A stretch of DNA of 64,000 nt from Octopus sinensis (lineage: Eukaryota), in the NCBI RefSeq assembly GCF_006345805.1, contig NC_043001.1:79732001-79796000 (forward strand). The letters are read 5' to 3'. Both the position numbers and the translations under genes were made by a program. How positions within the stretch are numbered: the first letter of the stretch is position 1; every line of letters starts with the position of its first letter. Below the pieces are notes generated by a model, which was not told where the DNA came from, made no database searches, and was given only the letters and a program-made list of their open reading frames with translations. Positions 7,045 through 57,921 of the stretch are shown here, one piece after another.

Positions 7045-7658
7045 ATACCTCAGAATATTGGTAATCGTTGCAGTAGAGTAACTACAGTTTCTGGTTTTCG
7101 AACTTACATTATAATGTAAATTCAAATAATTATTTAAAAGATTAAAACTTCTTTTCTTTGTAGTGTTTGGGTTTCGTTCAAATATACTCATACAAGCCAA
7201 TTAAAAATCACACTCTAATCTCAATATACACAAGAAGTACCCATATAAACATGCACATACGCAACACACACAAACACACACTCACTCACGTCGCTCGCGC
7301 ACACCCACCCACACATACATATATGTATATATAATATATACCAATAAATACGTGTATATTTACGTATATATTGTGTATGTATATATATATTATATATATA
7401 TATTATATATATATATATATATATATATTATATATATATATAGATATATTATATATATATTATATATTATATATATCTATATATATAATAACCCACAAAT
7501 ATATCTATAAATATGTGTGCATGTGCATTTATGTCGGTATATTCAATATATATTCATGTATGTATACATATCTATACATGCATAATATTTGATATATATA
7601 TATATATGTTTATTTATATAAAAATCTATATATACATAAAAAGGATATCCAGAGGTAA

Positions 7659-7745
7659 TACAGTACGATCGTTTCGTGCAACTCCATTTAACTGAACATT
7701 GCAATCATTACATCAATTTCAAATGCAGAACAATCCTCAGCTGCA
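7659..7745 (-). ncRNA. Type I hammerhead ribozyme motif (long helix II)
   Basis: Minus strand: UGCAG-CUGAGGA-58 nt-GAAA-CGAUCG-UA-CUGUA. Core intact; base of helix II imperfect. Confidence 0.65.
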
Positions 7746-8080
7746 CAAAGACATAGAATTTGATTAAATTAGAACAGATGGACACATTAGTATAATTATA
7801 CCTAAAATCTCCAAGACGTTGAGGAGATAGACAAAGAACATGTTGTCTTTACATCAACATAGCAGCTACAAAATTATCAAGAAGAATCTGCCTGTATCTG
7901 ATTTTATTTATTTATATGTGTTCAGTTTATTTTAGAGACTATTTTATTTAATCCTTCTAGTAACTTCTATGCTGAGGTAGAGACTACAGGTTCTTTGTCT
8001 ATCTCCGTAACTTGCAGATTTTAGGTATAACTATACTAATGTGTCCACCTGTTCTAATTTAATTAAATTCTCTGACTTTG

Positions 8081-8167
8081 TGCAGCTGAGGATTGCTCTG
8101 CATTTGAAATTGATGTAATGATTTCAGTGTTCAATTAAATGGAGTTGTATGAAACGATCGTACTGCA
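8081..8167 (+). ncRNA. Type I hammerhead ribozyme motif (long helix II)
   Basis: UGCAG-CUGAGGA-58 nt stem-loop-GAAA-CGAUCG-UA-CUGCA. 5-bp helix I, palindromic helix III (ACGAUCGU), predicted cut after A8162. Confidence 0.7.
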
Positions 8168-8865
8168 TTACATCTGGATATCCTTGTAGATTAATTTGAT
8201 TATAATCACCTTACTTCGAAATTGTATGGATTATACGGTACTAAATTTTGGTGCCTCAACTTAAGTACCATATTCATCTGAATATATATATATATATATA
8301 TAGGCAGAATTATAAGTATTATGCATATAAACCAAAACATTAGCTGACGTATAATATCTAAAATGAATGGTATGATTGATAGGTGTAAAGCACACTAAAT
8401 TTATATATATATACGTACATACATATAACATATATTTATATAGAAATATGTGTGTGCATATATATCTGCACAAATATATATATATATATTGCACTATCAA
8501 TATATACATATATGTATATATATATATAAATATATATATATATATATATATATGTGTATGTGTGTGTGTGTGTATACATATATAAAGATATACATATATA
8601 TATGTATGTATGTATGTATGTATGTATGTATGTATTGATAGTGCAATGAAACAATAGAGGGAAATAGAAAAAGACATAGAAGAGAAGTAGAATTAATCAA
8701 GCTGCTTATCCAATTCTAATACCAATTCCATCCTCATTCCAGCGAACAACACAATCTTCCACTTCTCTCTTACACTTCCCCGCTATTTTTGGATCCTCCC
8801 AAAACAGCCATTGCCCTCAATCTCTTTCACTTTTCCATTGTATCTCACTTGCTCTCCTATGCCTT

Positions 8866-9190
8866 TTCTCTCTCTCTTAATCTCTCTGTCCTCATGTGCG
8901 TCCTCTCTCTCTCGTCATCTCTCTCCTATCTCTCTTCTCTCTCTTCCTCTCTATCTCTCTCTCTTCTTCTCTCTATCTCTCCCCTCTCTCTCTCTCTCTC
9001 TCTCTCTCTCTCTCTCTCTCTCTCTCTCTCCCTCCCTCTCTCTCTCTCTCTCTCTCCTCTCTCCTCTCTCTCTCCTCTCTATTCTCCTCTCTCTCATATT
9101 TCTCTCTCTCTCTCACATTCTCCCTCTCTCTTCTCTCTCTCGTCTCTCTCTCTCTCTCTATCAGCTCTCTACTATCTCTGGCCTCTCTTT
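8866..9190. repeat. (CT)n polypyrimidine tract
   Basis: Directly visible. Confidence 0.95.
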
Positions 9191-10899
9191 TGCTCCCTCC
9201 AAAACATTAGTCATAGCTACTAAACGGTTTCGTTGGACTTTTTCCCTTCTTGACATTTCAGAATTCTTTATGGCAGAACTGCCTTAGTATGAATATCTGT
9301 GTGTGAGAGTTTACACACACACACACACAACACACACACATATACACACACACTCACACATATATACACCACTCACACACTCACACGCACACACGCACAC
9401 ACATTTGTACATGTGTGTTTATATATATATATATACATACAGATATAAATGTGAGTGTGTCTATGTATGTGTGTATGTACATGCAGCAACTCACACAAAG
9501 ACATATATATATATATAATATATACATATACGTTGGAGTCAGTGTGTGTGTGTGTGTGTGTGCGTGTGTGTGTGAGTGTGTGTCTGTGTGAGTGTGTAGT
9601 CTGCGTTGTGTGTTGAAGTGTGTCTAGATTTCTGTTAGTAAGAGTGTGTCAATGAATAGAGTTCTCTAAAGAATGGTAGTGCCTCTGTTTACATAGAGTT
9701 GTTATTGCTGTTTTTGCGTATGTGTGTCAGCGTTATTGTTGATATCTGGATGCATTTATGTATGTGTATATGTTTGTGTGGGCGTATGTGCCTGTGGCCG
9801 TGTGTACGATTTTGTGTGTATGCGTTTGTGTGTGTTTGTACGTGAGAATACGTGAATACTTCTTATATGCATGTGTATCTGCACATATATGTCTGCTCAT
9901 ATAAATCTGAGTATGTATGTAAGAACGGTTGCAGGAGTTAGAGATACTTTTGTGCACATATATGCATGTGTGTAAGCATGAATGTATGTATGTGTGTAAA
10001 TATGTCTGTTAGTGTGTCTCTATGTATGTTCATATGTATGTATGTGTATGTGTGTATGTATGTATGGATGGATGGATGTGTGTATGTATGTACGTATGTA
10101 TGTATGCACTTATTCCGTGGCATCGTTAGGTTTAAGAACGTGTTTGCATATGGGAAAGATATGCATTGGAATGGAGAATGTCTGTGAGTCTGAAGGTTCT
10201 ATTGTATATAGTTTAACATATGCCTGAGTGTATATATAGGGAGTGAATATTTATGCAAGTTATGAGTATACGCATGTATCTATATATGTGTTTGTGTGTG
10301 GCTATGAATACATGACTTCACGTAAATATGTATTTGCTTATATATAAAAATTGATGCATGTTTGTACATATATGCGCATGTGCTTTTACTGATATGTTCT
10401 CTTTTTAATCATATATATAAGTATCGAATATAAACATGTATGCGTATACCGCTAATATATATATATATATATATATATATATATATATATATATGTGTGT
10501 GTGTGTGTGTGTGTGTTTATCATATATATATATATAATCTATATAATATTATATATATATATATATATATATGTATTATGTAATTATTTATATATTTATA
10601 CACACATATATACATATGCATATATATTATATATATTCATATTTATGTATCTATATATTTATTTATACACACACATTTTCATATGTATGAGTGCATGTAT
10701 GCACACATACATACATACATGCATATATATATATATAAATACATATATATATATACATATGTGTGTATGCATGTTTGTGTATGAATGTTTGTTTGTTGTT
10801 TGTTGTTTGTTTAAATGTGCCTGCGTATGCGTGTTTACATATGTGTGTATGTTCTGACATTTCGTTCATCCAAAAATTCTCCCCATCCAGTTACCCTCA

Positions 10900-56098: not shown

Positions 56099-56172
56099 AT
56101 ACGTATGAACATATATATATGTGTATGTTTGTGTTTGCGTGTGTGTGTGTGTTTATACGTATATATACATAT

Positions 56173-56497
56173 AGGTGAGGGCGCGTGGCTTAGTGGTTAG
56201 GGCATTCGGCTCATGATCGTAAGGTTGTGAGTTCGATTCCCGGCGACGCGTTGTGTCCTTGAGCAAGACACTTTATTTCAGGTTGCTCCAGTCCACTCAG
56301 CTGGCAAAAATGAGTTGTACTTGTATTTCAAAGGGTCAGCCTTGTCACTCTCTGTGTCACGCTGATTATCCCCGAGAACTACGTTAAGGGTACACGTGTC
56401 TGTGGAATGCTCAGCCATTTGCACGTTAATTTCACGAGCAAGCTGTTCCGTTGATCGTATCAGCTGGGACCCTCGTCGTCGTAACCGGCGGAGTCAA
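56173..56497 (+). mobile_element. tRNA-derived SINE (family C)
   Basis: GGCGCGTGGCTTAGTGGTTAGGGC (A box), GAGTTCGATTCCC (B box), followed by an A-rich end. Confidence 0.9.
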
Positions 56498-57018
56498 GAA
56501 AAAAAAAATATATACATATAGGTATATATAAAGATGAGAATGCGTGTCTGTCTTTGTGTGCTTGTGAATCCCTAACACTCGAAAACTACACAACCGATTT
56601 TATACAAAATTTACACATGCCTTACATAGGGTCCATACAGTGTCATGCGCCAAAGACTTTTCAGTTTCTTGCGTAATGCGAGCCAAGAGCAATCTCTTAT
56701 CTCTTACACTATTTCAGTATTACGTCTCTATTGTAATGTGAGATAATACATTCAGTTTGAAAGAAGTCTGTCCTATATATATATATATAATATTATATAT
56801 ATATATAATATATATATATATATATATTACATTATATATAAGGGCTTAGTAAAATAAATTACTTTGCCACATACTGAACTCATTAGAAATAGCAGCTAAA
56901 GAAATTTCTTTAGCTATTTCTAATACTTAAAGAAGATCTCTCTCAGATAGTGTTTGCCTAAACCAACTTACAAAGGTATGGGGGAAAAAACATTAAAAAA
57001 TCAAGTGCAAAGGTTATT

Positions 57019-57070
57019 TGAGAACGTACGTTTCTAGATTAGTCAAATCGACATTTCTTTCGTCAGCTCA
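57019..57070 (-). ncRNA. Type I hammerhead ribozyme motif
   Basis: Exact reverse complement of 57311-57362. Confidence 0.7.
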
Positions 57071-57310
57071 GAACTCCTTGATTCGGATTTGGGAACACTG
57101 AAAGTGGGAGCATACCCTTTCGGTTCTTATCACCTCTAGAATTCTGCTCGAACTAAAAGTGCTATCAAATTCAAATATGCAAGCGAAGAATTTCTGCTTG
57201 CATATTTGAATTTGATAGCACTTTTAGTTCGAGCAGAATTCTAGAGGTGATAAGAAGCCGAAAGGGTATGCTCCCACTTTCAGTGTTCCCAAATCCGAAT
57301 CAAGGAGTTC

Positions 57311-57362
57311 TGAGCTGACGAAAGAAATGTCGATTTGACTAATCTAGAAACGTACGTTCTCA
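57311..57362 (+). ncRNA. Type I hammerhead ribozyme motif
   Basis: UGAG-CUGACGA-AAGAAAUGUC-GAUUU-GACUAAUCUA-GAAA-CGUACG-UU-CUCA. Palindromic helix III, GUU cut site after 57358; helix II imperfect (AGA/UCU, GUC/GAC). Confidence 0.72.
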
Positions 57363-57921
57363 AATAACCTTTGCACTTGATTTTTTAATGTTTTTTCCCC
57401 CATACCTTTGTGAGTTGGTTTAGGCAAACACTATCTGAGAGAGATCTTCTTTAAGTATTAGAAATAGCTAAAGAAATTTCTTTAGCTGCTATTTCTAATG
57501 AGTTCAGTATGTGGCAAAGTAATTTATTTTAATTTATTTTACTAAGCCCTTATATATAATGTAATATTTTGAATTCGCCTAAAATGGTCCCTTTACATAC
57601 TGAATACTTGGTGAAATTGATTAATAATTAATTAATTTTACCCTCAATTGTTGAAAATATATATATATATATATACGTTATCTCGACAACCAGCTATATT
57701 TACTTGAAAGACACTGCCCTACACTTTCAATTTCAACAAAATTTACTAAGTGATGCATTACGAGAGTGACAATTTTTCAATAATGAATATAATGTTTTGC
57801 CGAATTAGTCGCATCTGTACTATAATAAAGAAAGCTGCTTATCATCTATAATTTGATAAAGCTATAATATTGTTTCACTTTCCTTCCTTCATGTTTAATT
57901 CTAATTTAATAACATTAGGAT

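What the first reader, a model, noticed from the sequence alone, without database searches (positions are those of the whole stretch)
7641..57657. Recurring architecture: fold-back, hammerhead-bearing non-coding elements in (TA)n tracts, three unrelated families
Seen: four insertions (7641, 37004, 39049, 56824) from three families with no shared primary sequence have one layout: (TA)n, arm, spacer, inverted arm, 75-100 nt unique tail, (TA)n. Each arm holds a type I hammerhead core, and helix III is a different palindrome in each family (ACGAUCGU, ACAAUUGU, ACGUACGU), so structure is conserved without sequence. Established: Penelope-like elements carry minimal hammerheads with palindromic helix III in their pseudo-LTRs and form inverted termini with a 3-prime extension. 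Inference: these are microsatellite-targeted, ORF-less Penelope-like derivatives. The inversion puts a ribozyme on each strand, always downstream of its own antisense copy. Read-through RNA would fold into a long hairpin that masks the ribozyme (a potential ADAR/Dicer substrate), while RNA starting between the two motifs could cleave. Whether these particular families are described I cannot tell.
Basis: partly seen in the sequence, partly recalled or inferred. Interest (0 to 1): 0.8.

Follow-up and report, generated by a model that had tools for sequence, protein, structure and literature searches.

The report
Penelope-element ends and a hammerhead retrozyme
The fold-back, ribozyme-shaped repeats are real, but each mirror image is unique to its site: two families are cut-short ends of protein-coding Penelope-type jumping genes, the third is a 557-base non-coding tandem repeat, and all three were likely pasted in by an enzyme that copies one RNA from two fixed start points.

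Summary
In detail: all 8 arms carry a type I hammerhead core, and the three families share no sequence. Two arms belong to a local duplication, so there are 3 insertions, not 4. The reading 'ORF-less fold-back families' mostly fails. B is the 3' end of a 6.3-kb Penelope-like element (PLE) whose RT-endonuclease has Hydra-clade motifs. A is the 3' end of an older relative. Only C is non-coding: a 557-nt head-to-tail monomer, i.e. a non-LTR retrozyme. The fold-back is rebuilt at each insertion (65 of 65 junctions differ). Inverted copy, tail, (TA)n target and hammerheads are published PLE traits. What I did not find in print is the rule in C: 56 of 58 classifiable two-arm insertions pair one arm ending at site 557 with one ending at about 468. 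Both arms share one haplotype, and 16 of 56 cannot be snap-back copies. This favours two-site priming on one RNA. Cleavage, circles and expression are untested. This scan reported a similar reading on other DNA (e1-7858806).

The parts
7618..7954 (-). Family A inverted arm (outer end about 90 nt short of the element's 3' end; strict match from 7641); reaches about 80 nt further 5' than the direct arm
7658..7746 (-). Family A hammerhead, antisense arm
7955..8290 (+). Family A direct arm: last ~340 nt of an old Hydra-like PLE, about 89-90% identical to other copies; tail about 8201-8290
8080..8168 (+). Family A hammerhead: core 8086, long helix II, GAAA 8151, palindromic helix III 8154-8161, predicted cut after 8162
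36999..37263 (-). Family B inverted arm, copy 1 (element positions -72 to -335); hammerhead 37143-37101
37261..38105 (+). Family B direct arm, copy 1: last ~850 nt of a 6,302-nt Hydra-clade PLE; hammerhead 37891-37933; tail 38034-38105
39044..40152 (.). Family B copy 2 (arms 39044-39308 minus, 39306-40152 plus; hammerheads 39188-39146 and 39939-39981); part of a local duplication of copy 1 with its flank
56824..57198 (-). Family C inverted arm (monomer positions 468 to 92); hammerhead 57070-57019
57187..57656 (+). Family C direct arm (monomer positions about 95-108 to 557 of a 557-nt retrozyme-type unit); hammerhead 57311-57362, predicted cut after 57358; tail 57568-57656

Best explanation
The four sites are three insertions: the truncated 3' ends of two protein-coding Hydra-type Penelope-like elements (A, B) and of a 557-nt non-coding hammerhead tandem repeat (C), and their head-to-head arms were likely made by a Penelope enzyme priming reverse transcription twice on one RNA. 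Shown: every family has two fixed outer ends about 70-100 nt apart and variable inner ends; in C one arm uses each end; both arms share a haplotype. Inferred: a (probably dimeric) RT-endonuclease nicks both strands of a (TA)n tract; one 3'-OH primes at the downstream site and the other at the upstream site; both cDNAs run 5'-ward for independent lengths, through monomer junctions and the ribozyme site; they then join by short microhomology and are filled in. The tail is the distance between the two start sites. C has no ORF and likely borrows such an enzyme, using an uncleaved multimer or a circle as template. The hammerheads are likely selected in the RNA life cycle, not for the palindrome.
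For: B: 6,302-nt tandem unit with ATG at 61 and hammerhead at 6091; RT plus C-terminal GIY-YIG-type domain with DKT, CxCX5C, CxxC and CxH motifs as defined for Hydra (PMC8557442). A: contiguous copies over 4 kb lead upstream into an endonuclease remnant, 33-40% identical to B's, with CxCX5C and CxxC. C: arrays up to at least 12 units in one arm, longest ATG ORF 31 aa. Of 65 two-arm C insertions, 56 pair 557 with ~468, 1 is 557/557, 1 is 468/468, 7 cut off or other; the searches favoured 557 ends, so 557/557 was not under-sampled. Discordance at shared-variant columns: 212 of 8,695 between opposite arms, 626,002 of 1,678,790 between insertions; within subfamily C1 1.8% against 26.7%, C2 8.9% against 25.8%. 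Only 12 of 157 private alleles are in both arms, so later conversion is not the cause. 16 of 56 fit no snap-back copy; in B the -72 arm can be 5.6 kb beside a 1.2-kb direct arm (L098). Microhomology of 2 nt or more at 17 of 27 clean junctions, 18% expected. In vitro, an anole PLE nicks both strands and starts RT at two sites that bound the tail (PMC11167929).
Against: The in vitro study saw no difference in start site between strands, so strict pairing is not predicted by it. One haplotype in both arms could also come from two RNAs of one busy source locus. 40 of 56 insertions are also compatible with snap-back, and 6 have near-symmetric junctions. 26 of 53 well-anchored junctions had inserted or unresolved bases. 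The enzyme that moves C was not found. Loci are the best-scoring of thousands of candidates, so they are biased to young, long copies. No tree placed B among named clades. In A, helices I and III are no better conserved than background (50 of 852 against 1,078 of 21,406).
Confidence: 0.72

Rival explanations
1. Snap-back self-priming: one cDNA folds back and copies itself, and the copy ends at the internal TA-rich motif by annealing to the target. This is close to the self-priming model proposed for rotifer PLE palindromes.
For: PMC3846280 reads inverted junctions as self-priming. 35 of 56 ~468 arms lie within their 557 arm and 5 more fit the reverse case. 5 of 56 have both arms ending within 3 nt (0.5 expected); near-symmetric junctions are common in the related C3 family. 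The ~468 end is TA-rich.
Against: 16 of 56 fit neither direction without a further deletion. 7 of 34 single-arm insertions end at ~468. 31 of 56 557-arms exceed one unit, yet 557/557 is nearly absent. B and A copies exist whose inverted arm reaches further 5' than the direct arm.
Confidence: 0.15
2. One reading: the whole fold-back is a non-coding element that propagates as a unit and uses the hairpin to switch its ribozyme off.
For: Both arms carry cores in the window; predicted folds pair the core. Three loci share one junction.
Against: Those three loci also share flanking DNA and were dropped as duplicates; the remaining 65 of 65 junctions differ. A and B lead into ORFs. 22 of 56 lack a whole ribozyme in one or both arms.
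Confidence: 0.03
3. C is only the detached terminal repeat of a third autonomous PLE, and its arrays grew by local DNA recombination like a satellite.
For: PMC-unindexed preprint 10.64898/2026.07.22.740005 proposes this route for vertebrate retrozymes. Several Hydra-like families are present. Only 103 of thousands of candidates were inspected.
Against: No Hydra-type ORF is contiguous with any C, C2 or C3 locus scanned; the one nearby hit is a separate element beyond a TA tract. Multi-unit arms occur in both orientations at dispersed loci with the same two ends. Sister families C2 (560 nt) and C3 (592 nt) are also pure tandem monomers.
Confidence: 0.1

Closest known systems
Hydra clade of Penelope-like elements (Craig et al. 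2021, PMC8557442; Hydra-1_Obim, Penelope-13_HM)
   Same: C-terminal endonuclease, DKT, CxCX5C, CxxC/CxH, (TA)n target, hammerhead near the 3' end. The extra U on each side of helix II seen in many listed Hydra hammerheads is in A and C2. Penelope-13_HM is listed with an inverted 5' copy and a hammerhead on each strand.
   Different: B is 6.3 kb with about 3.7 kb of 3' non-coding DNA and an Asn-rich insert (Hydra 'generally <3 kb'); KWK for RWK; hammerhead differs from Hydra-1_Obim's (compared by eye).
General PLE insertion structure (PMC8557442 Fig. 2; PMC3846280) and Poseidon of Anolis in vitro (PMC11167929)
   Same: 5' truncation, partial tandems, inverted 5' copy, tail at one end, two RT start sites, read-through of the ribozyme site.
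   Different: Tails here are 70-100 nt, not 30-40. The one-arm-per-site pairing and shared haplotype are counted here; I did not see them in the passages read.
Metazoan non-LTR retrozymes (Cervera and de la Pena 2020, PMC7229834; Li et al. 2026 preprint 10.64898/2026.07.22.740005)
   Same: Non-coding tandem monomers with one type I hammerhead each; proposed PLE dependence.
   Different: 557-592-nt monomers (170-400 in the first paper, 51-972 in the second); inverted arms and two fixed ends; circles and cleavage untested here; no cephalopod case found.
Non-autonomous Chlamys elements such as MRC1 (PMC8557442)
   Same: Non-autonomous PLE with multi-copy head-to-tail insertions.
   Different: Those resemble their parent at the 3' end; C shows no similarity to A or B.
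L1 twin priming (recalled, no call)
   Same: Second target strand primes internally; inverted 5' part; microhomology at the join.
   Different: Here the second site is fixed and both cDNAs copy the same stretch.

Membership tests
Hydra-clade PLE (family B) | Single ORF, RT with C-terminal GIY-YIG-type endonuclease | tested here: met
   LYRDD and YIG in one frame; a homologue hits Pfam GIY-YIG below cut-off, B itself hits none
Hydra-clade PLE (family B) | DKT, CxCX5C linker, CxxC and CxH around E/N, no CCHH | tested here: met
   (CxH in L098; changed in L197); one Cys only inside the GIY-YIG core, by eye
Hydra-clade PLE (family B) | N-terminal RWK motif | tested here: inconclusive
   RIKWK, i.e. 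KWK
Hydra-clade PLE (family B) | (TA)n target and hammerhead in the terminal repeat | tested here: met
Hydra-clade PLE (family B) | Grouping with Hydra in an RT tree | not tested
   named reference proteins were only viewed in a supplement; resemblance by eye
Hydra-clade PLE (family A) | ORF upstream of the 3' end with Hydra endonuclease motifs | tested here: met
   broken endonuclease remnant contiguous with the A 3' region in L246 and L265; its RT part was not reached
Non-LTR retrozyme (family C) | Tandem monomers, one type I hammerhead each | tested here: met
Non-LTR retrozyme (family C) | No coding capacity | tested here: met
   longest ATG ORF 31, 18, 35 aa in C1, C2, C3
Non-LTR retrozyme (family C) | Self-cleavage and circular RNA in tissue | not testable with these tools
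   only assembled contigs of runs guessed to be RNA were available
Type I hammerhead | Core CUGANGA...GAAA...UH with helices I-III under constraint | tested here: met
   C: 0 of 26 core and helix I/III columns carry a shared second allele, 93 of 519 elsewhere (P 0.007); N7 is C/T/A in 54/29/14. A: core 14 of 737 against 5.0%, N7 A/G 37/23. C3 swaps all of helix I for another paired set. B too young to test.
Type I hammerhead | G10.1-C11.1 pair closing helix II | tested here: not met
   U.U in A and C2, A.A in C1, U-A in B; G-C only in C3. The U.U form is common in the Hydra list.
Self-propagating fold-back element (MITE/foldback-like) | Same inner junction and arm length across copies | tested here: not met
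   65 of 65 junctions differ

The most novel reading that the evidence does not exclude
Family C is a circular hammerhead RNA that a Hydra-type Penelope enzyme dimer copies into (TA)n DNA by rolling-circle twin priming: two subunits start at two fixed sites on the same circle, one per target strand. Its insertions would then be a direct genomic footprint of retrozyme mobilisation by a PLE and a natural read-out of how PLEs make inverted ends and tails, with a native enzyme (B) at hand to test it.
Probability: 0.35. Interest if true: 0.65.

Novelty: new member of a known kind. Interest (0 to 1): 0.42.

Why it matters
How PLEs form tandem and inverted ends is called an open task in PMC8557442, and the PLE dependence of animal retrozymes rests on co-occurrence and sequence likeness. 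A short, young, high-copy element with haplotype markers turns each insertion into a test: which site each strand used, and whether one RNA served both. The data argue against pure self-priming and predict a clear in vitro result. The architecture and ribozymes themselves are known.

Tried and rejected
Rfam scan of the window: no hammerhead family among the 150 shown of 359 matches, all shown being miRNA-like hairpins below gathering score. First descriptor missed A. Pfam and PDB gave no useful match for the B protein. Homologue search: 141 hits, nearly all unnamed; one named hit is from Argonauta hians. Tail similarity among A, B, C was no better than shuffles, so C's partner is unassigned. 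An endonuclease remnant in L177 and an ORF beside a C3 array (L326) proved to be separate elements. Exact-match junction mapping failed on haplotype differences and was redone. Stops at the predicted cleavage site: 8 of 162 inner ends at 269-275, 2.0 expected, but the window was chosen afterwards; symmetric windows give P 0.06 and 0.016, and arms cross the site 199 times: a hint only. Single-motif folds: helices I and II form in B, C, C3, A misfolds, z-scores not significant. RNA: no RNA holder listed on record; contigs of runs guessed to be RNA cover C but show no ends: no evidence either way. Host-gene context of the window was not established. Literature searches found no cephalopod retrozyme and no count of arm pairing; subscription papers and Repbase/Dfam were not searched, and the preprint's supplements were not seen.
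Full report
Setting. The window is G000:C5:79732001-79796000 of a 2.72-Gb, TA-rich genome. 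It is probably an octopod: the one named animal homologue of the B protein is from Argonauta hians; the rest is recall of octopus SINEs.

Observation. Inverted arms, (TA)n flanks and tails are present at all four places. A descriptor for type I hammerheads with a palindromic helix III finds 8 motifs, one per arm, and 1 in 200 shuffled windows. The three 3' ends are unrelated in sequence. The two B copies sit in one 2.05-kb duplication that includes unique flank, so there are three events.

Family B. The search gave 570 first-look candidates; the 40 scored copies are 98-100% identical. Longer copies lead through about 3.7 kb of non-coding DNA into an ORF. L096 holds a whole 6,302-nt unit between two hammerheads, with ATG at 61. 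The longest open frame seen is 859 codons stop to stop, 797 of them element-derived, in a copy lacking the first 176 nt. No complete unbroken copy was seen. The protein has DKT, LYRDD, CxCX5C, a GIY-YIG-type domain, CxxC and CxH: the Hydra clade as defined in PMC8557442 section 11. Twelve of 14 long loci have two arms, with outer ends at 0 and at -54 to -86 (mostly -72) and different inner ends.

Family A. 3,232 candidates; the 40 scored copies are 89-92% identical apart from the window's own. Walking upstream gives more than 4 kb of shared sequence that begins in a broken Hydra-type endonuclease. At least 11 of 55 loci show two arms, ending near -9 and near -98.

Family C. 3,181 candidates. 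The unit is a 557-nt monomer in head-to-tail arrays, with a sister subfamily C2 (560 nt, about 88%) and a distant family C3 (592 nt, about 69% over the matched part). None codes for more than 35 aa. From 108 clusters I dropped 2 duplicates sharing junction and flanks and 3 under 85% identity. Of 103 left, 65 are two-arm head-to-head, 34 single-arm and 4 complex; arms under 30 nt would be missed. All 65 junctions differ. 56 pair an arm ending at 557 with one ending at 440-476; one is 557/557, one 468/468, seven are cut off or other. The ~468 arm reaches further 5' in 21, the 557 arm in 29, and both stop together in 6. Sixteen of 56 cannot be a self-copy of either arm. Opposite arms match in haplotype far better than different insertions do, also within subfamilies, while private mutations are mostly in one arm only (12 of 157 shared). 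The one mixed-subfamily locus is a nested insertion with internal TA tracts. Clean junctions are rich in microhomology (17 of 27; 26 other well-anchored junctions unresolved). Arms cross the predicted cleavage site 199 times, so templates are mostly uncleaved multimers, circles, or monomers joined by template jumps; these data cannot separate the three.

Ribozymes. In C no core or helix I/III column carries an inherited variant, while N7, the free position, has three alleles. A shows the same at N7 and a cleaner core, but its CpG-rich helix III decays at background rate. C3 keeps the core and helix III and replaces helix I with another paired set. The 8-nt helices III do not fold alone but pair as dimers at -6 to -10 kcal/mol, in line with dimeric PLE hammerheads of low activity (PMC4209133). 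In the full palindromes the core is predicted paired. Activity is untested.

Mechanism. Shown: two fixed ends, one per arm; free inner ends; shared haplotype; read-through. Inferred: double nicking of (TA)n and two-site priming on one RNA, as suggested by the anole PLE that extends both strands and starts at two sites bounding the tail (PMC11167929), though that study saw no strand preference for either site. Snap-back may account for the symmetric minority. C's enzyme is unknown.

Known and new. Inverted 5' copy, tail, (TA)n bias, Hydra hammerheads and an octopus Hydra family are in PMC8557442 (passages, section 11, supplement part 2 and hits). Rotifer palindromes and the self-priming model: PMC3846280 (passages). 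Retrozymes: PMC7229834 (passages) and preprint 10.64898/2026.07.22.740005 (parts 1-3 of 5; supplements not seen). PMC11167929: parts 1-2 of 4. PMC4209133, PMC8969392 and PMC13282606: passages; the last lists recent Penelope families in an octopus and does not mention hammerheads. L1 twin priming is recalled. Verdict: new members of known kinds, with a useful mechanistic data set; interest 0.42.

Noticed in passing
window 59425-60849: Element with ~215-230-nt inverted ends (91%) and a broken transposase-like frame (59735-60202); looks like Tc1/mariner (label recalled).
   Followed up: partly
window 36869-41067: Near-perfect 2.05-kb tandem duplication; 543 of 543 flank bases identical. Very recent, or an assembly artefact.
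   Followed up: partly
window 31321-31414: 97-nt remnant of the family A 3' end, minus strand, 80% identical.
   Followed up: no
window 27884-29462 and 61380-63499: Two LINE-type RT remnants (CR1/L2-like by eye).
   Followed up: no
window 21552-22102 and 47616-48016: Tandem arrays of 183-nt (3 copies, SINE-like) and 201-nt (2 copies, 98%) units.
   Followed up: no
L296-L325: Family C3: 592-nt hammerhead tandem repeat, very young (97-100%), 68 candidates, same two-end rule, many near-symmetric junctions; has the canonical G-C pair closing helix II.
   Followed up: partly
L326:1450-3450 (minus) and L177, L249: Further Hydra-like PLE families, 30-45% identical to the B protein; candidates for the enzyme that moves C.
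   Followed up: partly
L197:847-3237 (minus): The B protein has a long Asn/Lys-rich insert between RT and endonuclease, like the Asn-rich inserts of rotifer PLEs.
   Followed up: no
L025:8-1908: A C1 insertion nested with C2-like pieces and internal TA tracts: repeated insertion into the same tract.
   Followed up: partly
L063, L070, L074, L258 (3' ends): Family A's downstream end varies by up to about 30 nt, hinting at more than two start sites.
   Followed up: no
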